Of a stretch of 64,000 nucleotides of DNA, positions 37,726 to 64,000 are shown in pieces. The translations under genes and the position numbers were made by a program. Within the stretch, counting starts at the first letter, position 1. Every line of letters starts with the position of its first letter. The DNA comes from Nitrospirota bacterium (GTDB lineage: Bacteria; Nitrospirota; UBA9217): positions 96,001-160,000 of the forward strand of contig CAWIYV010000011.1 of assembly GCA_963840455.1 (NCBI GenBank), in the 5' to 3' direction. A model generated the notes under the pieces. It was not told where the DNA came from. It worked only from the letters and a program-made list of their open reading frames with translations, and ran no database searches.

Positions 37726-37983
37726 TTACAGGGGATTCTCAGGGGGATCTTCTTCAATTTTTTTCGGCCTTCCACTTACCTCAATGTTCACCGAGAACCC
37801 TTTCCATGTCTCGGGTACGTGTCGAGTTACGGCGCTCTGCCTGTGCTCCACGTACACTACCAGTGCCGGGCGGCCGCCTTCGTCCGCAGTCACTCCTGCC
37901 CCAATGAAACCGGACTCTTTCGCCAGCAGCTTGACGATCTCCCGTTTTGCACTCAGTATCTGTGAAGCGCTCCTCTTCGGCAC
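37726..37983 (-). CDS. 85-aa protein resembling the N-terminal domain of the adjacent protease
   Basis: GGGGGAG RBS + GTG at 37983; GFIGAGV...ALVVYV...VPETWKGFSVNIEVSGRPKK. Confidence 0.7.
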   Translation of the reverse strand: MPKRSASQILSAKREIVKLLAKESGFIGAGVTADEGGRPALVVYVEHRQSAVTRHVPETWKGFSVNIEVSGRPKKIEEDPPENPL

Positions 37984-37999
37984 TGCGTGTACTCCCCCG

Positions 38000-39037
38000 T
38001 CAGGTAGCGATCCGAACTTTGAATCTTGTGAGAATCCGCTGGATCGGGATTGCGAACGTGACAAGATCGCTTCCGGCAAAAAGAAGCGCAACCACCTTGC
38101 CTTGGGAGTCCACGATGGCCGACCCGGAATCCCCTGCCTTGCTGAAGGCTCCGTCAGTACCCTTGACGACGATCACATCATCCACGCGCACCATCCCCTG
38201 GTCGTATTCAATATCAAATATATCAGAATTCACCGCCCGCACAATGCCTTCGGTCAATCCTGTCGTCCTGCCGGACTTCCGGACTGTCATATTCAATTGC
38301 GGCTTCCCTGCGCCGGAAGGAGTTCCAATGGCAAGTATGCTTCGGTCTACTGCAATTCCCGCACTGAACTCGGCGATTGCCGCGTCCATCCAGTTCCTGC
38401 GGTTATCGTATTTAAGGGTCACGAACCGGGTCAGCGTCGCGACCCGGTCAGCATTCCTGCCGTTGTCAAGGGTTCCCGGCTGGACCACGCCCGCCCCGAT
38501 GGGAGCCAGGTTTTCGTCAGCCAATACGTGGTTGTTGCTCAATGCATACAGTCGTGAGTGGTCCTTCCGATCCATCACAACAGCCCCCAGGGTACCTGCA
38601 AAAGAATAGTCCACGGCATCATAGTCCAGACCAACGGACACACCTCCGGTCACCGGGCGATGGCGATTTCGCTGATCGATCGCGAACTTCTTCGGATATC
38701 CGATGCCTTCCACGTCCGTCGGAAAACCGTTGACCTCTCCGGGTATCTGCTGATTTCGGCCAACGCGTCCTTTCGGATATTTTTTTGCCACAAAGACCTT
38801 GACGCACATCTCGCCCGTGGGCTTCCCTGCGGTCGTCTTCTCCCCAATCCCCAAGCCCACCACGTTCACCCCGACGGCAGGCTGATACCGCTTCGCCTTC
38901 CGGAGCGCGCGGGCCTGAGGCACAGCCTCTTCAATGCGAAGGAATAGCCTGTCACGCAGATTATTTTTTGCTGCGATAAAATCCGCCGAAATCCCCTGAT
39001 GCAGGGGATTTCTCAACTTCTGATCCCTTTTTTTCAC
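38000..39037 (-). CDS. Trypsin-like (Nal1-type) serine protease without a signal peptide
   Basis: Catalytic triad SNNHVL / MDAAIA / GDSGS; KSGRTTGLTEG; GGAGG RBS + GTG. Confidence 0.88.
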   Translation of the reverse strand: MKKRDQKLRNPLHQGISADFIAAKNNLRDRLFLRIEEAVPQARALRKAKRYQPAVGVNVVGLGIGEKTTAGKPTGEMCVKVFVAKKYPKGRVGRNQQIPGEVNGFPTDVEGIGYPKKFAIDQRNRHRPVTGGVSVGLDYDAVDYSFAGTLGAVVMDRKDHSRLYALSNNHVLADENLAPIGAGVVQPGTLDNGRNADRVATLTRFVTLKYDNRRNWMDAAIAEFSAGIAVDRSILAIGTPSGAGKPQLNMTVRKSGRTTGLTEGIVRAVNSDIFDIEYDQGMVRVDDVIVVKGTDGAFSKAGDSGSAIVDSQGKVVALLFAGSDLVTFAIPIQRILTRFKVRIAT

Positions 39038-39079
39038 TATAGCAACCTCCTTTTAGTATCCTGCTTTGCCTGAATCTCC

Positions 39080-39386
39080 CTACTTTCGCGCTTTCTCCAT
39101 AAGCCAGCAAATCAGCGCCCACTGGATACCAAGCGAGCCAAGAGATGACCAGTGCGGTCAGGAAATAGTCCAACAGCCACCATCCACCGAAGAGCCTCGG
39201 ACGATATACGGCAACCAGCTCAAAGGCCACCCAGTAGCCAAAGCAGTAGCCGCAGGAGAGCAGCTCGCCCCAGAATGCGCCTCTCGTTTTCACCCGCTCC
39301 CGCAGCAGCGCCAATAGTTTGGTTTCGGTTATCGTGAACGAGAAAGATGCAGTTACGAGTGATAAATATATTATGCGTTCGATCAT
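39080..39386 (-). pseudogene. DUF1360-like membrane protein with an apparent +1 frameshift near the 3' end
   Basis: GELLSCGYCFGYWVA; removing one T after WLA gives GIQWALICWLMEKARK* with TAG at 39080. Confidence 0.65.
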
Positions 39387-39538
39387 TGCGTCTTCGTCAA
39401 CACCCTCTTCGGCAGTGGACAATGGGCGGAAGCATGTATCGTCGCGTCCAGATCTTAATTATCATCTAACGATCCTGCCCTCTTTTCATTTTTACTGAGA
39501 ATCTTCTAAGGATTTTGAGTGAATAGATTATTTCATCT

Positions 39539-40132
39539 TTATTTCCTCGGATACACTTGTTCCCTGCTTATCAATGTATTAATTACCTTATGATCGCCCG
39601 ACGCCGCTTTAAATGGCTCCTGGTGTTTATAAATAGATCTGCCATCCTTCCCTGTTACAGAAAATATTATTTCCTGGTCTTTTATTTTTTCTAAGCTTTG
39701 CTTATTAAAAGCAACAGCAAAGTATCCGGACGCATCGCTTATGACAGCTTTGTCATAGGCTTTCACCCCTTTCACATTGGAAAAGAACACTTGCATACCC
39801 TCAATGCCACGACCCCATTCATCGGCGATCCTGCCGTGGATGACCATGGTGTCTTCGCTCATATCATGGGGGCTGATAGTCATCAATTCCATCTCCGCTT
39901 CTAATAAATTATCCAATTCGAGGTTTAGTTTTAATCCTAATGTCATTTCCTTTATAGCCGGATGATTTTTATCGATTTTCTTTAACTCGTAAATTTCTTC
40001 TTGTATTTGAATGTGCGAGGCTATATTGAGCGTCTTCAAAAGATTCAAAGCATTTAAATTTATTTCATCGGCTTCGTCGAAGGAGTCTCGCAACTCGTCA
40101 ATATATTTGTTTAGAGCAGTATTTTTTTTCAT
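39539..40132 (-). CDS. Hypothetical protein: helical N-terminus + carboxypeptidase-regulatory-like (Ig/TTR) domain
   Basis: VIHGRIADEWGRGIEGMQV...SDASGYF; starts a few nt after the DUF6519 stop. Confidence 0.75.
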   Translation of the reverse strand: MKKNTALNKYIDELRDSFDEADEINLNALNLLKTLNIASHIQIQEEIYELKKIDKNHPAIKEMTLGLKLNLELDNLLEAEMELMTISPHDMSEDTMVIHGRIADEWGRGIEGMQVFFSNVKGVKAYDKAVISDASGYFAVAFNKQSLEKIKDQEIIFSVTGKDGRSIYKHQEPFKAASGDHKVINTLISREQVYPRK

Positions 40133-40136
40133 AATA

Positions 40137-43100
40137 TTAATCTCCTGACATGGCCATTCTTAAACGAGATATCACAGACAATTTGTTTTCAATTTCCGCT
40201 ATATCTTTTTTTAGCTGTTCACAATACACAGGAAAAAGAACCTGATTTCCGTTATCAATGCGTTTAGTTCCAGTCACAATAATACAATGATCTCCCTGAT
40301 TATGAGTGGTATTATTTACCAGCGCCATCGTCAGCAAAGATATATATATTTCCGCCTCTATTGCCCTGGCCGCAACGAGCCCCACTGTATAAAGGGACAT
40401 AACTTTTGCTGTTCCCGTATCCTGGTCTTTCGCCATACCCTTTATGGCTTCCTTGAAGCGACTGTCAGCTGCTCTGACCGTCAACATCCCTTTCAACCAT
40501 GTATTGCCCTTCATAGTCGAGTCATAATCTAGAACATCGGACTGATTTCCATGGAAACCAATGTCATCAGAGGAGTGAATGATCTGAGAAAAGCGGCATC
40601 TTCGTGCAAGGTCTAGAATTGTATGATTGTTGGCAAAGAGAACATGTCCGCTTTTCCTCGAAGAAGATCGGATAGTTTCGATGTATTCATTGCCATTCAC
40701 TCGTGCAGAAGGGTTTACTGATGATGCTGGCTTCTGCAGAGGAGGTGCATCTGTAGTCGATCTGCCTGCGTTCAGTATAAAAACCGCACCCAGCCCGCCT
40801 GTGCTCGGATCTGACATGACGGTATGTAAATAATTGTCCGTAACGGAGACCGCGCCGATCGCTGTGATCATGAGTGTGCAGCCAATTGGCTGCTGCACGG
40901 TATTATTATGTATACTGATTGCAGGCATTATATCGCTCACTGAGACCTGCGGAACATACGGCAGTTTTTCATCGGGCTTCGTTGGTGCTGATGTGGTCCC
41001 GGCAGCGCTCGCTGCGGCCGCACGATTAGACATTGCTTTTAATTGATAATCCTCTGTTCTTACAGCGAGAGAATCCGATAATTGAGCAGCCGCTGTTTCG
41101 AGGGCAATTGCAATAATCCCCCCTCGGAGGGCCGGGTAATCCAGACGTAATTCTCCGATCAGCGCTCCATTCGCCGCAAGCACATTTCCAACTATATCTA
41201 TGTACGTACCCAGGATCAACATGCCGTATACAGGTTCCTTTGTAGTCGTGCCGTTTTGAAGGATCTGATTGTCCTTCACGATGATGAAAGTGCACCAGCC
41301 CAGAGAAATTGGCCCGAACCCGAAGTTTCGCGGTTTTCTCCGAATATCCATGGTGATCGGCGAATTGACACATCCGGTAATCCTATTTAACGTGATACTA
41401 ATATTGGATAGCCGGGGCAGTATTTTGAGTATTCTTGAATTCGGATTGGAAAGATAGAGCATTGCCAGAGAGTACTTGTTCTGGGGCGTTCCGATCCCAC
41501 AAAGCCCCATATTAGTGATTTCATTGTCAGTGATGTCCACCTTTTGGATTGGGGCCTTGATTTTTTCCGGCTCGTTTTTTCCTTCGCTTCCCTCGAACTT
41601 CTTCAGGGTTATCTTGTATTTGCAGTGAGCTTCATCAATTAGTTTCTTTTCAATGTGTTTAATAACCCAACCTGGAGATAATATGGAGACCGTAAACTCA
41701 CCGTCGGCATTAATAGTATCAAGCCGCCCATCTTCATGAGATAAAAGCGAATGTTGCCCTGCGTCGTTCTTGAACGCAACTGCGATGCTTTCCAAGGGAT
41801 TTCCGCGCTCATCTACTACTTGTACATAGGTGTATTTATAGAGCTTAATTACCTGTTCCGGTGCGCCATCTGTAGTAATCTCAATCTCATGCCCCAACGA
41901 TATGCCGTTTCCCGCTCCGCCGATTATCTTATTTGAGCATATCTTAACGTTTTTGCTTCCGCTGTAGACATGGATGCCCCCTAATGCCTTGTGCATTTTT
42001 TCTTTGGGCAGCACGGCCATCGCTTCGGCATTCCAGAGCGCCTTAGCATATCTTACAGCCCCTCGAATATGTCCATACACATCCTCGACATTGGCGCACG
42101 GGTTTGCAGGGTCTTCTTCACCCGGCTCGATGACGCCAGGCGGTGTACTTTCAGCTGGTATAACGCCAATGTCGTTTCCTTCAATCAAAACATCACGCCC
42201 CATAACATATATGGCAACGCCTGCACCTTCTTTATCAAGCATTCTGATCACATTATGATGAATCTTAATCTGTGAACCACTGAAGGTATGGATGGCACAA
42301 TCAAACGCAAGAATTCTGGTATGACGGATTTCAATATCACGCAAGAATAACCGCATAAATTGTAGTTTCCCTTGTTCGGGTCCTTCCATAAGGACCGCCT
42401 TCCCTCCCATGGCAATCATCTCAACCTGTTCCACCAGGATTCCTTGCGAATCCACGATGTAAATTATTGGTTCCGTAAGGTGTCCACCGCGGGGAATAAT
42501 CGTTGTCCGGTTACCACATCCTCTGATGGTAATATTTCGCTTTCCTTTTATATGAACATTTGCCTCGTGAACCCCTGGCATCAAGCAAATCTCGCCTCCG
42601 GTTGAGGGCAGGTGCTTGAGCGCTTCTTCGATAGAATCAAAGTCTCCATGGCTGGTTTTTCCATCGCCCACGGTGAGACTGCAGCAGCCCTGATACTGCG
42701 TAAGAGGTCTGAACCTCTTACGGCAGTCTCGGGAGACTTCACCAACCATGGTCTTGCCATCTTCCCTCGGCGACCAGTGTATTATTGCAAGAGGCGCATA
42801 GAAGCGGCGGACACCTTGAGGCGACATCCCTTCCTCGAGTCGCCAGGGAACAACCTTATTTGGTGTTTCAGGACGTGCTGCAATGATCCAGTGATCACCG
42901 GGCAATCCACCCCTGCCAGACATGGTGATCATCAAGCCTGTTTTACCGAGACGAACTTTAGTACCGGGTGAATAAGGTATCTTTGGGCTCGATTCCAAGT
43001 CCGCGCCCCGATTCCACACCCTCATGTAGAAATGGTCATTGCGTGAAGATGCGATCCATTTACGATCAAAATTCGATGGTAAAGGAGTTTCGATGACAAA

Positions 43101-44087: not shown

Positions 44088-44099
44088 GACAATATCCTC

Positions 44100-52268: not shown

Positions 52269-52288
52269 GACACAATTCTCCGTTTATG

Positions 52289-52993: not shown

Positions 52994-52994
52994 A

Positions 52995-54331: not shown

Positions 54332-54340
54332 AACTACCTC

Positions 54341-55039: not shown

Positions 55040-55051
55040 ACTGTAACCTCG

Positions 55052-55645
55052 CTAAGTTCTGGACTTCTTACCGGCCAAGCTCTTTTTTGCGTTATTGATC
55101 TTGTCCGCGGCCGCAGGATGACGCTCAAGGATCAACTTTTCCCATGGAGCATAGAGATCTTCTTGCAGTTTGCCAGGTGTTGGCTCCAAATGTTCAACTA
55201 TATTTATTAGATGGATGCACCACTGACCGCCATATTCACCAATATCTGTCATCTCGCTCTCGGTCAACTTCTCTTTCTTCTTCTCATTGTCGCATCGAGT
55301 CCCTAATGCTTTGTCGAAGTTAATCCAAAGTTGCGCCTCATGATAGGCAAGATCCGGGTTGAGACTGAGGATAAAGTCACGGTTCTCCGACGGATTGCGA
55401 AAGATCTCCTCGTGGATGAATCGCTTCCGAAGATAGTCGGTCCATACTACCTGCTCTTTCTGGTTCTCTGGTTCGTGCGGCTCCATCTCTTGCATCTCAC
55501 GGTAGATTAACTTTTCAAACTCCTTTTTACGCTGTTCAGACTTCAGCTTCTCTATGCGCTTTGGCAACCAAACACCAAGAACAAAGAGGACTGAAGGCAT
55601 GAAAACAACATCGATAAAATCTTTCAAATTATCGAATCCCCCCAT
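55052..55645 (-). CDS. Hypothetical protein with an N-terminal TM helix
   Basis: 197-aa ORF, GGAAGG RBS, TM VVFMPSVLFVLGVWL. Confidence 0.7.
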   Translation of the reverse strand: MGGFDNLKDFIDVVFMPSVLFVLGVWLPKRIEKLKSEQRKKEFEKLIYREMQEMEPHEPENQKEQVVWTDYLRKRFIHEEIFRNPSENRDFILSLNPDLAYHEAQLWINFDKALGTRCDNEKKKEKLTESEMTDIGEYGGQWCIHLINIVEHLEPTPGKLQEDLYAPWEKLILERHPAAADKINNAKKSLAGKKSRT

Positions 55646-55664
55646 AATATTCCTTCCCGTCCGG

Positions 55665-56780: not shown

Positions 56781-56843
56781 GCGGCTCTACACCTCATCAC
56801 GCACCAAGTCCCATTAACACGAAAGCTCTGAACTTAAGGTGTT

Positions 56844-57269
56844 CTAAAGTGTTTGCGAACCACGCGCAGTGGCTATCAATTCATCTTCCCAAAAATACCG
56901 GACCTCAATCGGCTTTTCAGCCTTGAGAGCAGTCAGTGGCACGACGAACTTCAGTCTGTACTGCTCAGGGCCCACTGCATCCCACCCCTCCTCTCCTTCT
57001 CTGGATATAGTGGTGATCTGACTGCCAGTCACTGACTGTCCGTCTTGAAAGATCTGAACCTTGTTTGTCGTGCCCCGCTCCTTTTCAGATCTCCAGATGT
57101 AATCCCATATGTCTGATTTACCGGTTGGTACAAGCAGATCGAAGACCACATTTGACTTCAAGACACTCAGATTGATCACTCGAAGCTCACCTTCCGGTAA
57201 CCAGTACTTCTTGCTCTGTGCAACCACGGGTGCCCCATTCAGTTGCATGATGATTTCCACAGCTTCCAT
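56844..57269 (-). CDS. Hypothetical 141-aa protein downstream of the toxin
   Basis: AAGGAG RBS before ATG 57269 (MEAVEII). Confidence 0.65.
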   Translation of the reverse strand: MEAVEIIMQLNGAPVVAQSKKYWLPEGELRVINLSVLKSNVVFDLLVPTGKSDIWDYIWRSEKERGTTNKVQIFQDGQSVTGSQITTISREGEEGWDAVGPEQYRLKFVVPLTALKAEKPIEVRYFWEDELIATARGSQTL

Positions 57270-57609
57270 CCCGGTCTCCTTCTGCTGTTGTAACGTCAAC
57301 TCACCTATGCGAATTACCGGCCTGATGTTTATCTTTATGTCGCGGATCCTTCAATAATTCATCGAGTGCTTTCTGCGCAGTTCTTCCGAGCAACTTTTGT
57401 TTTTGCATCCTTTATCGGTTCACGTAGAAATTCTGGAGCTCCTTAAGATTCAAAAGAGTGAAAAACTTATTCACAATATCTTTTTTAGGTTCTTCTTTTA
57501 GTTGTCCAATTCATTTATGAGTGTCAATATGTGCCTAACTGAGCACACCAGCGGGAAACTGGCACGATTCTGCCTGTTCCATTATTTACCGTTCAGCATT
57601 TTCCCCACT

Positions 57610-59829
57610 CTAACGAGTTACTCCAGCCTTCTTTATAAGTTTAGGATCCGCGATAACGCTTGGTGGGCTTCCATCCTTATGAAAGACCCGCCAAATCCGG
57701 CCTTCTTCGTCAAAGACGAAAAGGTCTTGCTTCAGATTCAAAGCCTGCTTCTGAAAGAACTCCACACAATCCTGGCACATCCACTTATCAACGGATATTG
57801 GCTGTCCAGGGTTGGCAACAGCTAACTGCTTCTCTGCATGACTCGCGTTCCATTCGCCGACAAAATTTTTGTCTCGGGGATGTGGTTTCAATTTATGTCC
57901 GATTTTCTCAGCTCGTTCCGCTACTGCCTCAGAACTTACTCTCTTTAATGGTTTTCGGCTGACCGCCCTCCTGTAGATGGTAACTCCTCCAGGTTGCTGT
58001 TCAATGCTCACCGCGACGGTCGCACCTTTCTTTGCTCGTTTCTGCGGTAACTTCTCACGCATTCGAGCAGTCGCTCCTGGTGCTGGTTCCTGCCCCGCAC
58101 CCACTGTTTTTGGTACCCTGCCTTTTTCGACTATTACCTTGGCAGGTTTAACACGTTTGCCTTCGACATAGCTTCCGCCTGTTTCTATTTGTCGGGGGGC
58201 ATCTCCTAGGCGGGCTGTTTTCGCACCTTCTTCTATTTCACCACCGACGCGCGTAACAGTACCGCCAGCCTTCTCAGCCTCACGTATTTTGCCTACGTAG
58301 CGATTGGCCTGTAGGATGCGCCGTAAACCGGGAATGTGCTCCAATAAGTCTATCAATCTCCTCGCGAATCGACTCGTTCTCAATGCTTTGCCAGCCGCCG
58401 ATACTCCGCGCGCCACCCACGCTTCTGGGCCAAGAAACAGCAAGGCGATCTCGAACACCACATAACCCTCTACTCTCCCAACCTTGAAACCCTTCCAAAA
58501 AGGGCTCGCTTTTTTGAAGTCGGTATTATACCAGCGGCCGGCCATTTGCCCAACTTGCTGCCCTATCTCGTATCCAAATTCGATTAGAAACGCTGGATAT
58601 CGACGCATCTGCTCGATGAATTCAGTTAGTCCCCTCTTCACTTCTTGGGCGTAACGTGCTTGCGCCGCCCGCTTAGCTTTATATCCCTGAGGATCCTGCA
58701 AAAACTCGATTCCTTCTTTGATCCCCAATTGGAGCAATCCCTGAGGGGTCAGATATTTAGCAACAAAAGAGGCAAGTTCTGCAATTCCAACGACATTGTC
58801 TTTCAGGCTCTCAAGCGCTCCTACTGGAGCGCCCAACTGAACACCACCGTTGAAAGCCAAAAGGTTCATTGTCTCGCTCAGTTCGTTACTTAGAGTAGCC
58901 CACTCGTCCGCATGAATCGTCTGTCGCGCCCCTATCAAGAAGCCTTGAGCAAAGCCAGTGGTTATTGTGGCTAGCCGATAGGCAGCCTTCAGTTCGCCTG
59001 GCATCCAGGCTGATATCTTTTCCCCGTACTTTCGTTCGTAAGCCACCAACATCCGCTGTGCTGCGGATTGCATCAGTATTCCGAGCTGGTTTTCAAGCTC
59101 TGCTCGTTCTGAACTCTGTCCCGGGTTATCTCGGAGCCATTTTTTGATGAGCTTTATTTCCCGCTGAAGCTTCTCGTCTGACATCAGTTGCACGTTTGGT
59201 GACTGATTAAGCGAGAGTGGTTGTCGCGCCAGTCTAACTCCGGATGAACCCCACACTCGTATCGGCCCTCTCCCTTTTATGGCGGCCCCAGCCGCCCAAT
59301 CAGCCGCCTGTTCCAAGGCACCGCTCTGAGAGAGGGAAAGCGATGTCGTCCCGCCACGTGACTGTTGTATTACGTGTGCCAACTCGTGAGCCACAAGGCG
59401 ATATCCTTCGCTACTTTCGAGTTTGTACCGGCCATATCCAAAGACTAGATCTTGACCCACCGTGTAAGCTGATGCGTTTACCGTTCGCGCCGACTTCGCT
59501 GCCCTCGCATCAGTATGCACCCTCACGTTACTGAAATCATGCCCGAAGCGCGGTTCAAAATGCGCGCGCGTTTTCGGATCAATCGGTTGGCCGGGAGAGC
59601 GCAGGACCTCCTGTATAATGGGCGGTACTGCTTTTGGCCTGTTTTCATTATGCGGCTTGTGTTTCGCAATGTTATTGCCAAAACTTCGCAGCACGCCATG
59701 ATTCCCCATTGTGCCTTGAAGATCATGACCCGAATGCGCAAAGCCCTGCTGCTGCGACGAAATTTCAGCATTCTGCACTTTCCGTGCATTACGCTCTGTC
59801 TGCTTCTTCTTGACTGCGACCTGTTTCAC
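57610..59829 (-). CDS. DUF4157 (eCIS core domain) protein with a C-terminal Zn-dependent deaminase toxin
   Basis: FEPRFGHDFSNVRVHTD...AHELAHVIQQ; hydrophobic middle; WNASHAEKQL...MCQDC. Confidence 0.88.
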   Translation of the reverse strand: MKQVAVKKKQTERNARKVQNAEISSQQQGFAHSGHDLQGTMGNHGVLRSFGNNIAKHKPHNENRPKAVPPIIQEVLRSPGQPIDPKTRAHFEPRFGHDFSNVRVHTDARAAKSARTVNASAYTVGQDLVFGYGRYKLESSEGYRLVAHELAHVIQQSRGGTTSLSLSQSGALEQAADWAAGAAIKGRGPIRVWGSSGVRLARQPLSLNQSPNVQLMSDEKLQREIKLIKKWLRDNPGQSSERAELENQLGILMQSAAQRMLVAYERKYGEKISAWMPGELKAAYRLATITTGFAQGFLIGARQTIHADEWATLSNELSETMNLLAFNGGVQLGAPVGALESLKDNVVGIAELASFVAKYLTPQGLLQLGIKEGIEFLQDPQGYKAKRAAQARYAQEVKRGLTEFIEQMRRYPAFLIEFGYEIGQQVGQMAGRWYNTDFKKASPFWKGFKVGRVEGYVVFEIALLFLGPEAWVARGVSAAGKALRTSRFARRLIDLLEHIPGLRRILQANRYVGKIREAEKAGGTVTRVGGEIEEGAKTARLGDAPRQIETGGSYVEGKRVKPAKVIVEKGRVPKTVGAGQEPAPGATARMREKLPQKRAKKGATVAVSIEQQPGGVTIYRRAVSRKPLKRVSSEAVAERAEKIGHKLKPHPRDKNFVGEWNASHAEKQLAVANPGQPISVDKWMCQDCVEFFQKQALNLKQDLFVFDEEGRIWRVFHKDGSPPSVIADPKLIKKAGVTR

Positions 59830-60062
59830 TTCAAAACCCTCAGGATTGCATCGGAGATCATTGTCACCAGTCGTTCCCGTGTTGCTCCCGTCGTGACGGG
59901 AATTTTCAATTCTATTGCGCCGAGACGGCGGTCCTTTTGCTGTGGAGGGAGTTTATCCGCCACGCGACGCATCACGTCCGCGCCCAGCCTCTGTGCTTCG
60001 CCCTTGCTGTGTCCGGGCAGCCGCAAAATAAAATCTTCTATCTTCACCTCATCCTTTTGCAT
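59826..60062 (-). CDS. Small hypothetical eCIS protein
   Basis: 78 aa; overlaps both the ATPase stop and the toxin start. Confidence 0.7.
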   Translation of the reverse strand: MQKDEVKIEDFILRLPGHSKGEAQRLGADVMRRVADKLPPQQKDRRLGAIELKIPVTTGATRERLVTMISDAILRVLK

Positions 60063-62154
60063 AGCTCCGCAGCCGATCCCGCTCCCGCCCGCTCAGGACC
60101 CGGCCTTCCTTCATGAGCTCTCGCTCCACGCCCCGGAGGAGATGGGTCAGGCCCATGGGTCTACGGTCCCGGCGTGCCACAAACAGGGCCGTGAGTATTG
60201 CGAACTTGATTTGTGCTCCGGTCAGCTCCAGGTGCTCGGCGAGCGCAGTGACCTCGTGTTCCAGCTTTTTAGTGTGCTCCGGCCCCGCCAGTTCTTCGGC
60301 TATCTTCCGCCAGATCTCTCCGCGCTGGGCCGAGTTCGGTTTCGGAAACTCCAGCACATAGCGGATTCGTCTGAGGAAGGCGGGATCGATGTTGCTTTTC
60401 CGATTTGTCGCGAGGATCGCGACGCCGCGGTAGTTCTCAACGGCCTGGAGCAGGTATCCCGTATCGGTATTTGCAAATCGGTCATGGGCGTCTTTAATTT
60501 CCGTCCTCTTGCCGAACAGGGCGTCCGCCTCGTCGAAGAGCAGCACGATGTCCATGGTGGCTGCGCGGGAAAGGATGCGTTCCAGGTTCTGGGAGGTCTC
60601 GCCGACATACTTGCTGACCACTGCGGAAAGGTCCACGCGAAACACATCAAGCCCTAGACTCGCGGCAATGACCTGGGCCGCCATGGTCTTGCCCGTTCCC
60701 GGCGGGCCGCTGAACAAGGTCAGTAGTCCTCTGCCTTGGGGAAAGAGGCGACGTCTTTTCGGCTGCTCCCAGAATTCAACGCGTTCCCGGGCCTCGAAGG
60801 CAAGATCTTCCAGGGTGTCGCGGAGATGGTCCGGAACGACGATGTCGTCCCACGTGAAGGGGCACTCGAGCATCTGGGCGAGACTGTCGAGCTTCTTTCG
60901 GTTGGACTCACGCACGAAGGTAAGAGCGGTCTCAGCGCTCTGGATGTTCTGCCGCGCCGCTGATGCGATTTCACCTATCTGCACCCGGTGCTGGGACACA
61001 AGCGTGTCGAACTCCTCGGATTCCCACGATTCCGATTGGGGCACAAAGTGCCGCCAGAGAAGGCGTCGTTCCTCCTGGGATAGTTCCGGCAGTTCGACAC
61101 GGAGGTCTGCGACTCCCGGAACAGGGGGGACCTGCTGCGCTGCTTCCGCAATGACGAACTGCAGGGGAAAAAGAGGAACCGTTACTGGCCATGCCCTCCG
61201 AAGCGGGTTCTCGCCATGCCACGCAAGGGCGCACCGTTCGAGATACGCTTGCCGCTGCGCATGCAAGAACGCCGTATGCCAGGTCTGATCGTCAACCAGG
61301 TCTGTATCGATCGCGAGCAGCGGAAGGCCGAGTCGCGAGCAGATTCCCGCGGCAAAAGTGCGCCGGCCGCTGCTGGATGGTCCGGTAATGTGCAGCCGCA
61401 CGGTCTGGGGAGCTTTTCCCTGGAGCAGTTCCTTGATCGTCGATGCGGTCTCGCTCATCGGCCAGTTCTTCAGGGGCTCAAGGGGATCTTGGAAACGGCT
61501 GATTCCCGCGAGCCGTTCATCAAGATAATCCTCGCCTGCCAGCCAGTCGCAGATGAAGGGGTCACAGATCAGCCTGGCGGGCTCGCCGGAACCGACCTCG
61601 TATTGCCTTACTAGGCCCCACCGCCTGAGCGCAGACTCAGGGCTCCAATGACTTCGATGAACATGTCCGAAGAGCCGCGCGGCCAGTTCCGCAGTCGCGT
61701 ACCCCCGTCCTGCGTGGTCGTGCAGGTAGGCATAAACGCGGGAGAGCGCGGGATCAAGGGCCGGAGCCAGACAGAGCTGTAAAAGGTCTGATTCCGCTGG
61801 GCTGATGTCGAAAAGGGCATGGAGCTGCGCAAAGCGGGACTTGGTGTCCGCAGCTATGGCTGCTTCGAGTCGATCTATTTCATAGTTCAACTGTTTCATA
61901 CCGGCGTCAGATGCAAACCACGCTGCCTCCGCTTCGGGCGAGTCCCGGTTGTCAAGATAGGTGTCGATCTCGGCATGGGTCACTGCCACCGTGCCACCCG
62001 GCGCTCCTTCCTCTGCCCAGAGTTTCCTGAGCCAGGCGACGCGCCGCTTTGCGAGGAGACGCATCCGCGACAACACCCGATCGAGCGCTGCATCGAGCTT
62101 CTCCTGTCCCCTTTCGAATTCCCTGATGGCATGTTGCTGTCGTGTTCGCGTCAT
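60049..62154 (-). CDS. eCIS AAA+ ATPase (Afp15/Pvc15-like)
   Basis: GPPGTGKTMAA, VVSKYVGETSQNL, LLFDEADALFGKRTEIKDAHDRFAN, IDPAFLRR; ATGA overlap at 62151-62154. Confidence 0.95.
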   Translation of the reverse strand: MTRTRQQHAIREFERGQEKLDAALDRVLSRMRLLAKRRVAWLRKLWAEEGAPGGTVAVTHAEIDTYLDNRDSPEAEAAWFASDAGMKQLNYEIDRLEAAIAADTKSRFAQLHALFDISPAESDLLQLCLAPALDPALSRVYAYLHDHAGRGYATAELAARLFGHVHRSHWSPESALRRWGLVRQYEVGSGEPARLICDPFICDWLAGEDYLDERLAGISRFQDPLEPLKNWPMSETASTIKELLQGKAPQTVRLHITGPSSSGRRTFAAGICSRLGLPLLAIDTDLVDDQTWHTAFLHAQRQAYLERCALAWHGENPLRRAWPVTVPLFPLQFVIAEAAQQVPPVPGVADLRVELPELSQEERRLLWRHFVPQSESWESEEFDTLVSQHRVQIGEIASAARQNIQSAETALTFVRESNRKKLDSLAQMLECPFTWDDIVVPDHLRDTLEDLAFEARERVEFWEQPKRRRLFPQGRGLLTLFSGPPGTGKTMAAQVIAASLGLDVFRVDLSAVVSKYVGETSQNLERILSRAATMDIVLLFDEADALFGKRTEIKDAHDRFANTDTGYLLQAVENYRGVAILATNRKSNIDPAFLRRIRYVLEFPKPNSAQRGEIWRKIAEELAGPEHTKKLEHEVTALAEHLELTGAQIKFAILTALFVARRDRRPMGLTHLLRGVERELMKEGRVLSGRERDRLRSYAKG

Positions 62155-63446
62155 GGCATCTTGATCCACTGCGGAGAAGACTCCGCGCCGTTCACGAAAA
62201 TCCGCAGCGGATAATTTTTACCCGGCTCCAGCGTGGTCGGCAGCTGCACGGTGATCTGGGACGTGGAATCGATTGTGAACTCGCCGCTTGCGAGCGGCCC
62301 GCCAGAGGAGAGCGCCAGTCTTATCTGCCCCACATATACCTGCACGCCCCCCGTGGGAATGTCTGCGTGCCGGAAGAGATATCCGGTTATGACGACCTTA
62401 TGGACAGCATCGGGTGGAGCAACAGAATCAATCCGCGGAGTAATGGTGAAAGGGCAAGCGTTGGATCGATGTTCGATATCCTGCGTCCCCGATGGTGTGG
62501 CCAGTTTTCTGGTGACTTTTGCAATTACAGCGTATACTCCTGGAATCACATCGTTTCCGTTGGCCTTTTCCTGTGCCACGGACGAAAGCTCGATGGCTGT
62601 TGCAGCAAGGCTCCATGAAGCGGTAACGTCAACCGGATCGCTCCAGCGCTGATGACACAGCAATAAAGACGTCCGCTCGCCGGTAAAGCCTGCACCTTTA
62701 AATTTGATCCTGCTCTTTTCGATTGCCGGGTCGTTAGGTGGCAATCCTGTTTTTACAGAAGGCGCCTGGGCGGGTTGAAGCGTCAGGTTTTGTGTTGCTA
62801 ATGTGCCTGGTATTAGGAAGGACATAGTGCTTTGACTGCTGTCTATCCTCGGAGCCCCGTTGACAAAGGTCTGAATCCCGTATGCCAAGACTCGGCCAGC
62901 CCGGGATTTCGACTCCTCCGGCTCAAGCAGAGCGACAGAAACCTGGTAATAGGCGGCAAGACGGAGGGGCGATGATCCGGCTGTCCAGTAGCTCACGGCA
63001 TCATGGTGTGCAACAGGCTGAAGCACGATCCGCAGACGGTTATTATCCCCTTGGAGGTCCGCGGGATAAATGCTCGTTCCGTCAATCGCTGTTGCATCGT
63101 CTATGATCGGATAATCGCGAAGGGCCTTAATAGCAATGCCCATCATCTGCTGTTCAAGAAGACTGTCTTCAGAAGTGCTGCGAGCGGTAAGCTGGTAAAA
63201 GAGATTCAGCCCCATGGGCGTATAACGGACGGGTGGTGTGTCGTTGCCTAGTGCAGGCAGATTTTTGTAATGCGCATCCTCTGCTATGTGATAGAGATAC
63301 AGGCCGATGGAGTCGCCGGTCAGCAGGTTCGGCGGCTGGGGTGAAACAGTAGGAGCAGTAGCACCCCATGCCGGCGATGCTCTGAAATATTCCGAGATCA
63401 GTGTGGTGAGCGCCTGGGTCACCAGGCTGATATTCAGCAATGCCAT
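62151..63446 (-). CDS. DUF4255 / Afp16-Pvc16-like tail terminator with C-terminal IPT-like domains
   Basis: IGLYLYHIAED, PMGLNLFYQLT, LRLAAYYQVSVALL, YPLRIFVNGAES. Confidence 0.88.
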   Translation of the reverse strand: MALLNISLVTQALTTLISEYFRASPAWGATAPTVSPQPPNLLTGDSIGLYLYHIAEDAHYKNLPALGNDTPPVRYTPMGLNLFYQLTARSTSEDSLLEQQMMGIAIKALRDYPIIDDATAIDGTSIYPADLQGDNNRLRIVLQPVAHHDAVSYWTAGSSPLRLAAYYQVSVALLEPEESKSRAGRVLAYGIQTFVNGAPRIDSSQSTMSFLIPGTLATQNLTLQPAQAPSVKTGLPPNDPAIEKSRIKFKGAGFTGERTSLLLCHQRWSDPVDVTASWSLAATAIELSSVAQEKANGNDVIPGVYAVIAKVTRKLATPSGTQDIEHRSNACPFTITPRIDSVAPPDAVHKVVITGYLFRHADIPTGGVQVYVGQIRLALSSGGPLASGEFTIDSTSQITVQLPTTLEPGKNYPLRIFVNGAESSPQWIKMP

Positions 63447-63448
63447 GG

Positions 63449-64000
63449 CTACATTTGCCCCAGACCGAAACGCAGAGGAGAACGTAATCGGCCTTTCTGA
63501 TCAGATGGTTCCGTTTTTGTCATCGACGATCCATCATGTCCATGCCGCCGTTCATGCCGCGGTGACGGCGCTTGTGCAACGACCTCAACCTTCATCTGCT
63601 CGATAATAAGCTTGTTTGTTGCCTTTACTTCCTCTCGCGTGATTGACTGGTGCCGCGTCGTCTCTTGCAGAGCCACCGGTGACAGTGTCGGCACGATCTC
63701 GGTCACTATGCTAATCGATCTGTCTGCATTGTCACGGTCATCGAGCGATCTCCTGGTTTCCTGTGTGTCCTGGGTTGACTTTTCCAGTGTTCGCTGTGTA
63801 ACTTCTTCATGCTCGTTGAAGCTATGTTTCTGAATCAAGTTTGATTTATCATAATCAAAACCCTTTAATTGCTGGAATGTTCGAACTTCTGGAGGTGTTG
63901 TATCTTTTCGCTCGATATTTCCAACGGATGTGTTTACCTGGATAGTATTCATTCTGTCGAGTACCACTGCCGGGGAATCCGACACCTTCTCATGGGATAC
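63449..64000 (-). CDS. Low-complexity hypothetical eCIS protein, C-terminal part (frame open to the window edge)
   Basis: No stop between 63985 and 64000; LIIEQMKVEVV and terminal RFGLGQM; abuts DUF4255. Confidence 0.7.
   Translation of the reverse strand, partial: VSHEKVSDSPAVVLDRMNTIQVNTSVGNIERKDTTPPEVRTFQQLKGFDYDKSNLIQKHSFNEHEEVTQRTLEKSTQDTQETRRSLDDRDNADRSISIVTEIVPTLSPVALQETTRHQSITREEVKATNKLIIEQMKVEVVAQAPSPRHERRHGHDGSSMTKTEPSDQKGRLRSPLRFGLGQM

What the first reader, a model, noticed from the sequence alone, without database searches (positions are those of the whole stretch)
37726..64000. eCIS cluster with split structural genes and a multi-effector cassette in a probable anaerobe
Seen: over 26 kb of co-oriented genes with an apparently intact baseplate, spike, ATPase and terminator set; Afp7 and Afp8 equivalents are each split in two; a variable AT-richer cassette (55.0-59.8 kb) lies between the ATPase and Afp7. 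Established: Afp15 + Afp16/DUF4255 + DUF4157 without capsid or TssJLM genes mark eCIS. Inference: cargo aimed at peptidoglycan and nucleic acid points to an antibacterial or self-directed system, unlike the eukaryote-targeting Afp, PVC and MAC. Sheath and tube genes should lie beyond 64000.
Basis: partly seen in the sequence, partly recalled or inferred. Interest (0 to 1): 0.85.

Follow-up and report, generated by a model that had tools for sequence, protein, structure and literature searches.

The report
Phage-tail-like injection system with toxin cargo
This is a complete gene cluster for a phage-tail-like protein-injection machine of a known type. It carries a DNA-mutating toxin and a probable cell-wall-cutting enzyme as cargo, and its "split" genes are normal for this type.

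Summary
Window 39539-64000 (minus strand), continuing about 4.2 kb beyond the window, encodes an intact contractile injection system (CIS). Sheath and tube genes lie just past base 64000, as predicted. No capsid, terminase or classical T6SS genes were found.

The "split" Afp7 and Afp8 are not damage. They are separate genes in 34 of 34 related loci from about ten phyla. Chen et al. 2019 describe split afp8 plus two afp11 copies as the mark of lineage II subtypes IIa and IIc.

The AT-richer block (55.0-59.8 kb) sits in a conserved cargo slot that ranges from 21 to 7866 nt in relatives. It encodes:
- a DUF4157 protein ending in a complete SsdA-type DNA deaminase domain;
- a LysM protein with a probable zinc peptidase domain, which shares the first protein's N-terminal leader;
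- two orphan genes that may confer immunity.

An antibacterial role is likely. Whether particles are released or stay cell-bound cannot be told from sequence.

Side results: a sigma-54 activator module sits upstream, and a conserved disordered ~300-residue protein is a candidate length ruler. The last three ORFs (37726-39422) are not conserved.

This is a new member of a known kind. The scan has noted similar DUF4157 cargo in other genomes.

The parts
63449..64000 (-). C-terminal 183 codons of a 276-aa disordered protein (the gene runs to window-equivalent 64279). Candidate tape-measure or ruler analogue.
   Evidence: No Pfam or PHROG family. Proteins in the same slot in 6 relatives are 312-339 aa. 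They share the N-terminus M..YLQRL, an IIGxLxVEVV motif and the C-terminus LRFGLGQ. The family has 151 representatives. Median length is 302 aa, and the C-terminal motif is present in 140 of 150.
62151..63446 (-). Tube terminator / cap (Afp16/Pvc16 type), 431 aa
   Evidence: Pvc16_N, E 2.4e-28. It is the only such gene in the genome.
60049..62169 (-). Afp15-type AAA+ ATPase, 706 aa
   Evidence: AAA E 3.3e-27 and WHD E 9.3e-20. GPPGTGKT and DEAD-type Walker motifs are visible in the translation.
59826..60062 (-). Conserved 78-aa protein; overlaps the first cargo gene by 4 nt
   Evidence: Homologues directly after the ATPase were detected in 16 of the 37 loci. In several of them the gene overlaps the next gene by 4 nt. 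No family found.
57610..59829 (-). Cargo toxin, 739 aa: N-terminal leader, DUF4157 (HELAH), about 400-aa linker, SsdA-type cytosine deaminase domain
   Evidence: eCIS_core E 3.1e-31 and SsdA_C E 6e-12. Residues 578-726 align with SsdA 7jtu residues 20-162, E 1.7e-20, with SHAEKQ and MCxDC kept. It is the only DUF4157 gene in the genome.
56844..57299 (-). 151-aa orphan (true start probably 10 or 17 codons in). Candidate immunity protein for the deaminase.
   Evidence: Position only. No family, no PDB relative, no named Atlas cluster, and no homologue in the 37 loci.
55665..56780 (-). Second cargo candidate, 371 aa: the same N-terminal leader, a LysM domain, then a C-terminal domain with a probable LAS-type zinc peptidase fold
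   Evidence: LysM E 1.4e-6. Leader residues 1-48 are 33% identical to those of the 739-aa protein, E 8e-6. Each leader is the other's only significant hit in the whole genome. The C-terminal domain has 10 homologues, 5 of them with DUF4157.
55052..55645 (-). 197-aa orphan with one N-terminal transmembrane segment. Candidate immunity (or lysis-accessory) protein.
   Evidence: It holds the only N-terminal, transmembrane-like hydrophobic segment (residues 7-25) among the 27 proteins scanned; two other proteins have an internal hydrophobic stretch over the same threshold. No family and no homologue in the related loci.
54341..55039 (-). Tube-initiator-like protein (the tube-like half of Afp7/Cis7), 232 aa
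   Evidence: CIS_tube E 1.1e-8. Conserved in 34 loci.
54053..54331 (-). 92-aa protein with a LysM-like beta-alpha-alpha-beta fold (the LysM half of Afp7/Cis7)
   Evidence: AF2 model, pLDDT 78. The weak top Foldseek hits are the S. coelicolor CIS baseplate chain 9gtp_M (E 0.17), LysM domains, and the 7b5h_AK, 7aeb_M and 9qgl_7A chains. It is a separate gene in 34 of 34 loci.
52995..54053 (-). Spike hub, gp27/gpD-like (first half of 'Afp8'), 352 aa
   Evidence: Phage_GPD E 3.7e-8. Of the best 120 database relatives, 119 are 350-367 aa, at 61-72% identity.
52289..52993 (-). Spike, gp5/gpV-like OB fold with its own apex (second half of 'Afp8'), 234 aa from the ATG at 52993
   Evidence: Phage_base_V E 9.4e-23. 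The ATG lies 1 nt after the hub's TGA. It is a separate gene in 34 of 34 loci. An SHIHPG motif sits near the C-terminus.
51840..52268 (-). 142-aa protein in the PAAR (Afp10) position; not PAAR-like by sequence
   Evidence: No family. Homologues occur only in the 5 loci that also have the long spike (L017, L031, L032, L036, L039). Nine of the 10 other loci I examined carry a ~110-aa CPHGG protein here instead (L021's is cut short by my search window; L052's 109-aa ORF lacks the motif); the one I scanned (L020) gives DUF4280 at a weak E 8.4e-4.
51413..51790 (-). gp25-like baseplate wedge protein (Afp9)
   Evidence: GPW_gp25 E 1.9e-15.
48903..51416 (-). Baseplate J / gp6-like protein, copy 1 (Afp11a), 837 aa
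   Evidence: TIGR02243 192.4 bits (cut-off 155.8), Baseplate_J E 4e-5. Best PDB hit is the S. coelicolor CIS baseplate J protein 9gtp_1K, E 1.4e-9.
46399..48906 (-). Baseplate J / gp6-like protein, copy 2 (Afp11b), 835 aa
   Evidence: TIGR02243 154.4 bits, just under the cut-off. phrog_219 baseplate wedge subunit, E 1.5e-18.
44100..46427 (-). 775-aa conserved baseplate-periphery protein (in the Afp12 position)
   Evidence: No family and no PDB relative. Conserved at E 1e-160 to 1e-250 in every locus that reaches it.
40137..44087 (-). Tail fibre, 1316 aa: DUF6519 (eBAP5) baseplate anchor plus a right-handed beta-helix
   Evidence: DUF6519 E 1.5e-10, Beta_helix E 6.4e-5. eBAP5 is described in PMC12923769 (passages).
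39539..40132 (-). 197-aa protein following the fibre (GC 0.386); possible fibre accessory protein. Last conserved gene of the cluster.
   Evidence: Homologues directly after the fibre gene in 2 of 4 relatives, E 3e-15 and 7e-7.
37726..39422 (-). Three co-oriented ORFs (DUF1360-like 153 aa, trypsin-like 345 aa, 121 aa). They are not part of the conserved cluster.
   Evidence: Pfam. No homologue in 0 of 4 relatives' downstream DNA or in the 37 loci. A terminator-like site on the minus strand lies at 37668-37653.

Best explanation
Window 39539-64000 plus the next 4.2 kb is one intact operon-like cluster for a lineage II contractile injection system (CIS). It is of the type with a split spike gene and two baseplate-J genes (subtype IIa or IIc of Chen et al. 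2019).

Structural parts. The sheath, tube, cap, hub, spike, gp25, two J proteins, the 775-aa protein and the DUF6519 fibre build a phage-tail-like particle.

Cargo loading (inferred). The Afp15-type ATPase loads cargo into the tube lumen by recognising a disordered N-terminal leader. Two proteins in the mid-cluster cargo slot carry that leader:
- a DUF4157 protein ending in an SsdA-type single-strand-DNA cytosine deaminase;
- a LysM protein ending in a probable LAS-type zinc peptidase that would cut peptidoglycan peptides.

Immunity (inferred from position only). The orphan gene after each of these is the likely immunity gene.

Action (inferred). Contraction drives the spike and cargo into a neighbouring bacterium.

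Regulation (inferred). Transcription probably starts at a sigma-54 promoter, switched on by the adjacent enhancer-binding protein.

Origin. The cluster was acquired horizontally.

Shown by computation: gene content, intactness, conservation, and the domain identities of the deaminase and LysM domains. Inferred: loading by the leader, the immunity roles, the peptidase activity, sigma-54 control, and release as free particles. I put release at about 55%, against 25% for cell-bound or cytoplasmic action.
For: Gene content and order.

Intactness and conservation:
- The same order, sheath-tube-hub-like-[~300-aa slot]-cap-ATPase-p78-[cargo slot]-tube-like-p92-GPD-baseV-gp25-J-J-775-DUF6519, recurs in the 37 related loci wherever the contig reaches.
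- Those loci come from Chloroflexota, Bacteroidota, Acidobacteriota, Proteobacteria, Desulfobacterota, Myxococcota, Planctomycetota and Verrucomicrobiota.
- Protein lengths there match ours.

Splits are normal: 34 of 34 loci for each pair; 119 of the 120 best hub relatives are 350-367 aa; and Chen 2019 section 10 says the same.

Cargo slot:
- Among 26 loci with both slot edges, the slot is 21 to 7866 nt long.
- 20 of those 26 hold a DUF4157 protein.
- C-terminal domains in the slot vary: Ntox14 in 12 of 37 sequences scanned, Ntox15 in 1, Endonuclea_NS_2 in 1, and SsdA_C only in ours.

Deaminase: E 1.7e-20 to SsdA across the whole domain, with the HAE and CxxC motifs kept. The PDB's Glu-to-Ala SsdA variant marks that Glu.

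Shared leader: E 8e-6; the only significant genome-wide hit, E 7e-5 and 3e-4; the next best is E 0.15 or worse.

The leader as a loading signal, and the ATPase's role in loading, were shown experimentally for AlgoCIS Cgo1/Cgo2 (preprint 10.64898/2026.05.27.728243, passages).

LysM cargo: 5 of 10 homologues of its C-terminal domain carry DUF4157. The leader is disordered in the model: pLDDT is below 50 over residues 1-82 (10-residue block means 26-35 over residues 1-80), while the C-terminal domain is at about 90.

Horizontal origin:
- 15 of 301 genomes of the phylum (own genome included) have any hub match, the best at only 25-29% identity.
- Relatives in other phyla reach 60-72% identity.
- An ISL3 transposase lies 3.5 kb upstream, with a 100% identical copy on another contig.

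Sigma-54 control:
- The activator has Sigma54_activat at E 2.4e-63, and rpoN is present.
- A GG-N10-GC element, CGGCAT-N5-TTGCA, is conserved with the congener G087.
- The activator-p103 pair also precedes the sheath gene in a Pyrinomonadaceae relative.
Against: - No experiment, and no RNA or DNA sequencing run could be listed.
- Nothing shows that particles are released. No holin or endolysin cassette was recognised.
- The closest solved sheaths belong to a membrane-bound haloarchaeal system (9ezm, E 1.6e-64) and the cytoplasmic Streptomyces CIS (8bky, E 8e-61).
- LysM also binds chitin, so the target need not be a bacterium.
- The immunity roles rest on position alone. Neither orphan has relatives in the 37 loci.
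- The sigma-54 motif count in L001 is at chance level (18 found, 17.6 expected). No such element was found in the Pyrinomonadaceae locus.
- The subtype was assigned from published features, not from a tree.
Confidence: 0.75

Rival explanations
1. The machine is not released. It works while attached to the producer's membrane (contact-dependent, like the haloarchaeal clade IIa 'archaeal T6SS'), or it fires inside the cytoplasm as a stress or cell-death device (like Streptomyces CIS).
For: - The best solved sheath relatives are exactly these two systems (9EZM identified).
- The haloarchaeal cluster has the same layout: two structural subclusters split by an interspacing region that holds DUF4157 proteins and toxin plus downstream-immunity pairs.
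- No lysis cassette was recognised here.
Against: - None of the conserved core proteins has a predicted transmembrane segment. The T6SS mode in haloarchaea correlates with a 6-TM anchor gene. I did not search for a relative of that gene.
- A DUF6519/eBAP5 fibre with a beta-helix is of the class catalogued as eCIS receptor-binding fibres.
- A peptidoglycan-directed cargo fits attack on another cell better than cytoplasmic firing.
Confidence: 0.25
2. The LysM/peptidase protein and the 197-aa membrane protein are a lysis module that frees particles from the producer. They are not injected cargo plus immunity.
For: - A LysM domain with a probable cell-wall peptidase fold, followed by a small protein with one N-terminal transmembrane segment, resembles an endolysin plus holin or spanin pair.
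- Geller et al. raise the idea that eCIS toxins may contribute to lysis.
Against: - The protein has no signal peptide or SAR-type N-terminus. It has the same disordered leader as the DUF4157 toxin.
- Half of its homologues (5 of 10) are DUF4157 fusions, the cargo hallmark.
- Neither gene is conserved in the 37 related loci, which would also need a release function.
Confidence: 0.15
3. The cluster is a prophage tail remnant or an R-type tailocin rather than a cargo-injecting CIS.
For: Sheath, tube, gpD, gpV, gp25 and J are phage-tail families.
Against: - It has the Afp15-type ATPase, the Pvc16 cap and DUF4157 cargo.
- No capsid, portal, terminase or integrase family appears in the 19 kb upstream or in the genes downstream.
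- The identical architecture recurs in 37 loci across phyla without phage genes in view.
Confidence: 0.03
4. The cluster is an inactive relic.
For: There is no expression evidence. It is rare in the phylum. It lacks a recognisable PAAR protein.
Against: - Every conserved gene is an open frame of the same length as in relatives.
- Catalytic and Walker motifs are intact.
- The long spike variant carries its own apex, and the same spike plus p142 arrangement recurs in 5 other loci.
Confidence: 0.08

Closest known systems
Lineage II eCIS-like loci, subtypes IIa/IIc (Chen et al. 2019, Cell Rep, PMC6899500; dbeCIS)
   Same: - afp8 is split into gp27-like and gp5-like ORFs.
- There are two afp11 (Baseplate J) copies.
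- The Afp12- and Afp13-position genes are divergent.
- No recognisable afp14.
- Spread across phyla by horizontal transfer.
(Passages of sections 9-11 and 14; my.)
   Different: - Subtype membership was not tested by phylogeny, because no reference sequences were at hand.
- Chen lists afp10 (PAAR) as present in IIa and IIc. Our locus has a non-PAAR 142-aa protein with a long self-capped spike instead.
Haloarchaeal CIS / 'archaeal T6SS' of Halogeometricum borinquense (clade IIa; Sci Adv 2024, PMC11566945; sheath 9EZM)
   Same: - It is the best solved sheath match (E 1.6e-64).
- Structural genes form two blocks separated by a variable region with DUF4157 proteins and toxin plus downstream-partner pairs.
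- No tape measure was recognised.
(Passages.)
   Different: - That system is archaeal, membrane-bound and contact-dependent, with a 6-TM anchor gene.
- Here the host is a bacterium, no TM protein lies in the conserved core, and an eBAP5 fibre is present.
- Our sheath is 848 aa against 574 aa.
AlgoCIS cargo proteins Cgo1/Cgo2 (Algoriphagus machipongonensis; PMC8894135; preprint 10.64898/2026.05.27.728243)
   Same: - Cargo architecture is disordered N-terminal leader, DUF4157, variable C-terminal effector.
- Leaders are similar within one system.
- Loading needs the leader and the Afp15-type ATPase, not DUF4157.
(Passages.) Here two proteins share a leader and one of them lacks DUF4157.
   Different: - AlgoCIS sheath similarity is lower (7adz, E 2.9e-32).
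- The effector domains differ.
- Loading was not tested here.
SsdA, the T6SS single-strand DNA deaminase toxin (PDB 7jtu, 9c63; Pfam SsdA_C)
   Same: Alignment covers the whole toxin domain, E 1.7e-20. The S-H-A-E-K-Q and M-C-x-D-C motifs are conserved.
   Different: - Here the domain is fused to a DUF4157 CIS cargo module rather than to a T6SS delivery domain.
- The neighbouring candidate immunity gene has no detectable relative.
- Geller et al. 2021 already validated a DUF4157-deaminase eCIS toxin, EAT11 (Table 1 passage). I did not compare the two sequences.
Afp / PVC (lineage I eCIS; PDB 6rao, 6j0b)
   Same: The sheath C-terminal domain is similar (E about 1e-40), and the same core parts are present: tube, cap, ATPase, gp25, J.
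   Different: - Lineage I has a single fused Afp8, Afp7 with its LysM in one chain, and three sheath paralogues.
- Its cargo sits at the 3' end without DUF4157, and its ATPase and cap lie at the end of the operon.
- Its known targets are eukaryotic.

Membership tests
Contractile injection system of the Afp/PVC superfamily (eCIS-like) | Sheath and gp19-type tube genes | tested here: met
   Phage_sheath_1/1C and Phage_T4_gp19 (E 1.9e-40), just beyond the window.
Contractile injection system of the Afp/PVC superfamily (eCIS-like) | Pvc16/Afp16 cap and Afp15-type AAA+ ATPase | tested here: met
   Pvc16_N E 2.4e-28. AAA E 3.3e-27 plus WHD.
Contractile injection system of the Afp/PVC superfamily (eCIS-like) | Spike (gp27 + gp5), gp25 and Baseplate J | tested here: met
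Contractile injection system of the Afp/PVC superfamily (eCIS-like) | No capsid, portal or terminase genes adjoining | tested here: met
   No such family among the ORFs scanned in L001 (19 kb upstream) and in window 33.4-37.4 kb. Two upstream ORFs (291 and 309 aa) have no family at all.
Contractile injection system of the Afp/PVC superfamily (eCIS-like) | No classical T6SS sheath or membrane complex | tested here: met
   VipB (PF05943) and IcmF-related (PF06761): 0 matches in the genome, which is rated 100% complete. TssJ and TssL were not searched.
Contractile injection system of the Afp/PVC superfamily (eCIS-like) | Particles are released and act from outside (the 'e' in eCIS) | not testable with these tools
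   Needs EM and killing assays. The closest solved sheaths come from systems that are not released.
Lineage II subtype IIa/IIc (Chen 2019) | afp8 split into gp27 and gp5 ORFs | tested here: met
   definition.
Lineage II subtype IIa/IIc (Chen 2019) | Two afp11 copies | tested here: met
   TIGR02243 hits on both the 837-aa and 835-aa proteins.
Lineage II subtype IIa/IIc (Chen 2019) | afp10 (PAAR) present | tested here: inconclusive
   The 142-aa protein in that position has no PAAR or DUF4280 match. Most relatives carry a CPHGG protein there, with a weak DUF4280 hit.
Lineage II subtype IIa/IIc (Chen 2019) | Placement in the Afp11 tree | not tested
   No dbeCIS or eCIStem reference sequences were available, and supplements are closed.
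DUF4157 CIS cargo (Cgo-like / EAT) | DUF4157 domain with HExxH, N-terminal to a toxin domain | tested here: met
   eCIS_core E 3.1e-31 at residues 82-159. HELAH is visible in the translation.
DUF4157 CIS cargo (Cgo-like / EAT) | Disordered N-terminal leader shared among the cargo of one system | tested here: met
   for similarity. Disorder was modelled only for the 371-aa protein.
DUF4157 CIS cargo (Cgo-like / EAT) | Physically loaded into the tube lumen | not testable with these tools
   Needs particle proteomics.
SsdA-type (BaDTF2) deaminase toxins | Homology across the whole toxin domain, with the H-A-E and C-x-x-C zinc motifs | tested here: met
   The family label BaDTF2 is recalled, not taken from a call.
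SsdA-type (BaDTF2) deaminase toxins | Cognate immunity protein that binds the toxin | tested here: inconclusive
   The only candidate (151 aa) is assigned by position. No relatives were found.
LAS zinc peptidases (M15/VanY, DD-carboxypeptidase, Hedgehog N-domain fold) | H-x6-D ... H zinc triad | tested here: met
   H314, D321 and H362 are invariant in 11 of 11 aligned sequences. That this spacing is the LAS signature is recalled knowledge.
LAS zinc peptidases (M15/VanY, DD-carboxypeptidase, Hedgehog N-domain fold) | Fold similarity clearly above background | tested here: inconclusive

The most novel reading that the evidence does not exclude
The ~300-residue protein encoded between the hub-like gene and the cap gene (here 276 aa; window 63449 to window-equivalent 64279) may be the tape measure that lineage II systems are said to lack.

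It would be an intrinsically disordered, proline/serine/glutamate-rich ruler. Only its two ends (M..YLQRL and LRFGLGQ) and its length are conserved, so it would set tube length as an extended chain rather than as an alpha-helix.

Support:
- It occupies a conserved position in the 8 loci that reach it.
- The termini are conserved in the 6 relatives aligned.
- The family has 151 representatives. Median length is 302 aa and the interquartile range is 278-319 aa for the 138 sequences of 200 aa or more.
- The C-terminal motif is present in 140 of 150.

Chen 2019 and the haloarchaeal study both report no afp14/cis14 homologue.
Probability: 0.35. Interest if true: 0.5.

Novelty: new member of a known kind. 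Interest (0 to 1): 0.3.

Why it matters
The finding adds a complete, well-annotated lineage II injection system from an uncultured sulfite-reductase-bearing Nitrospirota bacterium, a phylum in which such loci are rare. Only 15 of 301 genomes sampled (own genome included) have any hub match.

It also gives three leads that can be tested:
- A natural pair of cargo proteins shares a loading leader, and only one of them has DUF4157. This fits the recent experimental claim that the leader, not DUF4157, directs loading.
- An SsdA-type DNA deaminase is delivered by a CIS instead of a T6SS. Such deaminases interest people who build base editors.
- A conserved-length disordered protein could be the missing length ruler of lineage II systems.

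None of this changes how these systems are understood.

Tried and rejected
- Complex prediction of the deaminase domain (residues 575-739) with the 151-aa neighbour gave no verdict (score 0.00).
- Public sequencing runs: none was listed for window 52001-62000, and no RNA holder was listed.
- The C-terminal domain of the LysM protein had no Pfam or NCBIfam match. A profile search of the PDB found only LysM. Foldseek gave no match at E 0.001 or better.
- The 92-aa protein: a profile search of the PDB found nothing relevant, and all Foldseek matches are weaker than E 0.1.
- The 151-aa protein: the PDB and ESM Atlas searches gave no named relative.
- The 775-aa and 266-aa proteins have no solved relative by sequence. 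The one hit for the 266-aa protein, to an antifreeze-protein repeat, looks spurious.
- The sigma-54 consensus scan of L001 is at chance level overall, and nothing was found in the Pyrinomonadaceae locus.
- I first read the activator-p103 pair as a host-specific switch behind which the CIS had been swapped, because congener G087 has the pair in front of a different CIS. I dropped 'host-specific' after finding the same pair in front of this CIS type in an Acidobacteriota genome.
- I considered a frameshifted single Afp8 and rejected it: the genes are separate in 34 of 34 loci, in all three relative frames.
- Small ORFs in the 310-nt gap after the toxin gene gave nothing convincing.
- Searching the scan's earlier findings by sequence gave no look-alike window.

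Full report
**WHAT IS THERE**

The window is G000:C11:96001-160000 of a 4.03-Mb, 14-contig genome. From 64000 down to 37726, all long ORFs that matter lie on the minus strand.

Family searches give, in transcription order:
- Pvc16_N cap, 62151-63446
- AAA+ ATPase with a winged-helix N-domain, 60049-62169
- a 78-aa ORF
- a 739-aa eCIS_core (DUF4157) + SsdA_C protein, 57610-59829
- a 151-aa orphan
- a 371-aa LysM protein
- a 197-aa orphan
- a CIS_tube protein, 54341-55039
- a 92-aa ORF
- Phage_GPD, 52995-54053
- Phage_base_V, 52289-52993
- a 142-aa ORF
- gp25
- two TIGR02243/Baseplate_J paralogues of 837 and 835 aa
- a 775-aa protein with no family
- a 1316-aa DUF6519 + beta-helix protein
- a 197-aa ORF
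- three further ORFs (DUF1360-like, trypsin-like, 121 aa)

I fetched the next 19 kb (L001). Directly upstream lie:
- the rest of a 276-aa ORF
- a 266-aa T4_baseplate / phrog_150 'baseplate hub' protein
- a gp19 tube protein (E 1.9e-40)
- an 848-aa sheath
- a 103-aa ORF
- a sigma-54 enhancer-binding protein

Further on come an ISL3 transposase, a WD40 protein, a caspase-family and a papain-family peptidase, and an AraC-type response regulator.

The genome has a single DUF4157 gene and a single cap gene. It has no VipB or IcmF-type T6SS genes.

**THE 'SPLIT' GENES**

The hub gene ends in TGA, and the spike ATG follows one base later.

A database search with the 352-aa hub gave 944 relatives at E 1e-10 or better. 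Of the best 120, 119 are 350-367 aa long, at 61-72% identity.

From an alignment of 20 of these, I recovered 37 related loci in named genomes. They come from Chloroflexota, Bacteroidota, Acidobacteriota, Gamma- and Alphaproteobacteria, Desulfobacterota, Myxococcota, Planctomycetota and Verrucomicrobiota, plus one MAG labelled 'archaeon'.

Searching their ORFs with our proteins shows one invariant order wherever the contig reaches.

In all 34 loci that hold both hub and spike, a stop codon ends the hub at query residue 350-352. The spike alignment starts 7 nt before to 85 nt after the end of that stop codon, in any of the three frames. In all 34 loci that hold both the tube-like gene and the 92-aa gene, these too are separate.

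Chen et al. 2019 (PMC6899500, section 10, passages read) state two relevant things. [quoted passage not shown] Second, IIa and IIc have two afp11 copies. The splits are therefore a published hallmark of the lineage, not decay.

That the 92-aa protein is the LysM half of Afp7 is only weakly supported. Its model (pLDDT 78) has a beta-alpha-alpha-beta core. The top Foldseek rows are the S. coelicolor CIS baseplate chain 9gtp_M, LysM domains, and the 7b5h_AK, 7aeb_M and 9qgl_7A chains. All are at E 0.17 or weaker.

**THE CASSETTE**

The four ORFs at 55052-59829 have GC 0.456-0.518. Their neighbours are at 0.589-0.608.

In the 26 related loci where both edges are present, the same slot (after the ATPase and 78-aa gene, before the tube-like gene) is 21 to 7866 nt long. 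In three loci it holds no cargo gene (L030, L037, L052). Twenty of the 26 hold a DUF4157 protein.

I ran a Pfam scan of the last 500 residues or fewer of 36 slot ORFs plus ours. It found Ntox14 in 12 of 37, Ntox15 in 1, Endonuclea_NS_2 in 1, OmpA in 2, and SsdA_C only in ours. This is the behaviour of a polymorphic-toxin slot.

*The 739-aa protein.* It has DUF4157 with HELAH at residues 82-159. Its last 150 residues align with the whole SsdA toxin domain (7jtu, E 1.7e-20), keeping SHAEKQ and MCxDC. The PDB's inactive SsdA variant has Ala at that Glu.

*The 371-aa protein.* It has the following features:
- It begins with a 48-residue stretch that is 33% identical, without gaps and from residue 1, to the start of the 739-aa protein (E 8e-6).
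- In a six-frame search of the whole genome, each leader's only significant hit is the other (E 7e-5 and 3e-4; next best E 0.15 or worse).
- Its C-terminal domain has 10 database homologues at 52-61% identity. Five of them carry DUF4157 and seven carry LysM.
- The model shows a disordered leader (1-82), a confident LysM domain (85-140) and a confident C-terminal domain (190-371, pLDDT about 90).
- H314, D321 and H362 are invariant. From memory, this spacing is that of LAS zinc peptidases.

*The two orphans.* The 151-aa and 197-aa proteins that follow the two cargo genes have no family, no solved relative and no homologue in the 37 loci. The 197-aa protein has one N-terminal hydrophobic segment; no other protein scanned has an N-terminal one, and the two other stretches over the threshold are internal, in the trypsin-like protein and the ATPase. 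Their reading as immunity genes is by position. It is analogous to the 'downstream partner' pairs shown experimentally in the haloarchaeal system.

**HOW IT LIKELY WORKS**

Published work on AlgoCIS shows that cargo has a disordered N-terminal leader that is necessary for loading. It also shows that DUF4157 is dispensable, that leaders resemble each other within a system, and that the Afp15-type ATPase mediates loading (preprint 10.64898/2026.05.27.728243, passages).

Geller et al. 2021 defined DUF4157 as an eCIS core or toxin marker. They also validated a DUF4157-deaminase toxin, EAT11 (PMC8213781, passages).

By analogy, the two leader-bearing proteins here are loaded into the tube and injected on contraction.

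A DNA deaminase would harm any cell. A LysM/peptidase cargo points to a peptidoglycan-bearing target, although LysM also binds chitin.

The 1316-aa protein carries DUF6519. A recent catalogue defines this domain as the eBAP5 baseplate anchor of eCIS fibres, often with C-terminal beta-helix domains (PMC12923769, passages).

**RELEASED OR CELL-BOUND?**

The best solved sheath matches are:
- 9ezm (E 1.6e-64), the contracted sheath of the membrane-bound haloarchaeal clade IIa system;
- 8bky/9gtp (E 8e-61), from the Streptomyces coelicolor CIS (entry title of 9gtp), which a preprint abstract describes as cytoplasmic (search listing).

PVC and Afp score about 1e-40, AlgoCIS 3e-32 and tCIS 2e-29.

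No conserved core protein has a transmembrane segment, and a fibre is present. I therefore lean towards release, at about 55%, but the sequence cannot decide it.

**ORIGIN AND REGULATION**

Within the host's phylum, 15 of 301 sampled genomes (own genome included) have any hub match, the best at 25-29% identity. Of the 5 other genomes of the genus, one (G087) matches, at 26%.

DNA comparison within the genus shows shared flanks up to window 34773 and the LPG-synthase-like gene at 36527-37320. None of the CIS is shared.

G087 has orthologues of the activator (E 1.8e-191) and the 103-aa ORF (E 8e-38). A CIS cluster of a different architecture follows them, and no Afp15 or DUF4157 match was found on that contig.

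The same activator-103-aa pair precedes the sheath of this CIS type in a Pyrinomonadaceae genome (E 2.9e-139 and 1.4e-22). It was not found in the four other relatives I checked. The pair thus looks like a CIS-associated regulatory module.

Between the activator and the 103-aa ORF, G000 and G087 share a GG-N10-GC element: CGGCAT-N5-TTGCA in G000 and CGGCAC-N5-TTGCA in G087. rpoN is present. The motif count is at chance level overall, and the Pyrinomonadaceae locus shows none. I rate sigma-54 control at about 60%.

**HOST**

DsrA is present at 562.6 bits, over the cut-off. Among the best 120 DsrA relatives, the organism-named ones are:
- 11 Nitrospirae, Nitrospirota, Thermodesulfovibrionales or Magnetobacterium-type
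- 4 Chloroflexota or Anaerolineae
- 1 Magnetococcales

All of these are at 66-70% identity.

This agrees with earlier scan notes that call the genome an uncultured Nitrospirota. Four full-length haem-copper oxidase family genes, plus one fragment hit, are also present. 'Probable anaerobe' is therefore plausible but not proven.

**CLUSTER END**

In four relatives I fetched the DNA after the fibre gene. Two have a homologue of the 197-aa ORF at 39539-40132. None has the DUF1360-like, trypsin-like or 121-aa genes. The conserved cluster thus ends at about 39539, not 37726.

**SIDE RESULT: THE 276-aa PROTEIN**

Relatives in the same slot are 312-339 aa long. They share only the two termini and one motif.

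A profile search of 1.84 billion representatives found 151 members at E 0.001 or better. Among the 150 listed, 138 are 200 aa or longer, with a median of 302 aa and an interquartile range of 278-319 aa. The C-terminal motif is present in 140 of 150. The middle region is 12% proline.

Conserved length without conserved sequence, at the position where Afp14 stands relative to Afp15 and Afp16, suggests a ruler.

**VERDICT**

This is a real, complete lineage II CIS with a typical DUF4157 cargo slot: a new member of a known kind.

The papers' supplementary tables (the dbeCIS locus lists, Geller's toxin tables) were closed. They may already list close relatives of this locus or of this cargo type. 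The scan's earlier notes record similar DUF4157 cargo in two other genomes.

Noticed in passing
window 36372-36526: A ~150-bp intergenic element just downstream of the LPG-synthase-like gene has many copies (83-93% identity) across this genome and its congeners. I did not test that.
   Followed up: no
L058/L059 (G087:C70:33001-62740): A same-genus genome has orthologues of the sigma-54 activator and the 103-aa ORF, followed by a different CIS cluster. Its order is 192-aa cap, 660-aa sheath, tube, 1112-aa sheath-like protein, tube, gpD-like, gpV-like, gp25, J. No Afp15 or DUF4157 match was found on that contig.
   Followed up: partly
L064:2444-4407 (G301, Pyrinomonadaceae): The activator plus 103-aa pair also sits directly upstream of the sheath gene of this CIS type in an Acidobacteriota genome. 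It was not found within 4.5 kb upstream in four other relatives. It looks like a CIS-associated regulatory module of unknown signal input.
   Followed up: partly
window 51840-52993, and L020:11639-11983 and others: The spike tip comes in two forms in this CIS lineage. One is a long spike (234-245 aa, with an HxH-type motif) plus a 142-aa-type protein, seen here and in 5 loci. The other is a short spike (about 183-200 aa) plus a ~110-aa CPHGG protein, seen in 9 of the 10 other loci examined; the one scanned (L020) has a weak DUF4280 (PAAR-like) match.
   Followed up: partly
L001:10002-17378 (window-equivalent 73002-80378): A 1158-aa WD40 protein, a 309-aa ORF with no family, a caspase-family (C14) peptidase and a papain-family (C1) protein lie co-oriented upstream of the cluster. 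They may form a conflict or cell-death module.
   Followed up: no
L001:8670-9686: An ISL3-family transposase lies 3.5 kb upstream of the sheath gene. It has a 100% identical 1380-nt copy on contig C7, so the element is recently active.
   Followed up: no
L018 (JABXGY010000140.1): One related locus, with 66% hub identity, sits on a 4.6-kb contig of a MAG labelled 'archaeon'. This could be real transfer or a binning error.
   Followed up: no
window 37726-39422: A trypsin-like serine peptidase (345 aa), a DUF1360-like membrane protein and a 121-aa ORF follow the cluster on the same strand. They are absent from relatives. The DUF1360-like gene has a 71% identical DNA match elsewhere in congener G087.
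   Followed up: partly
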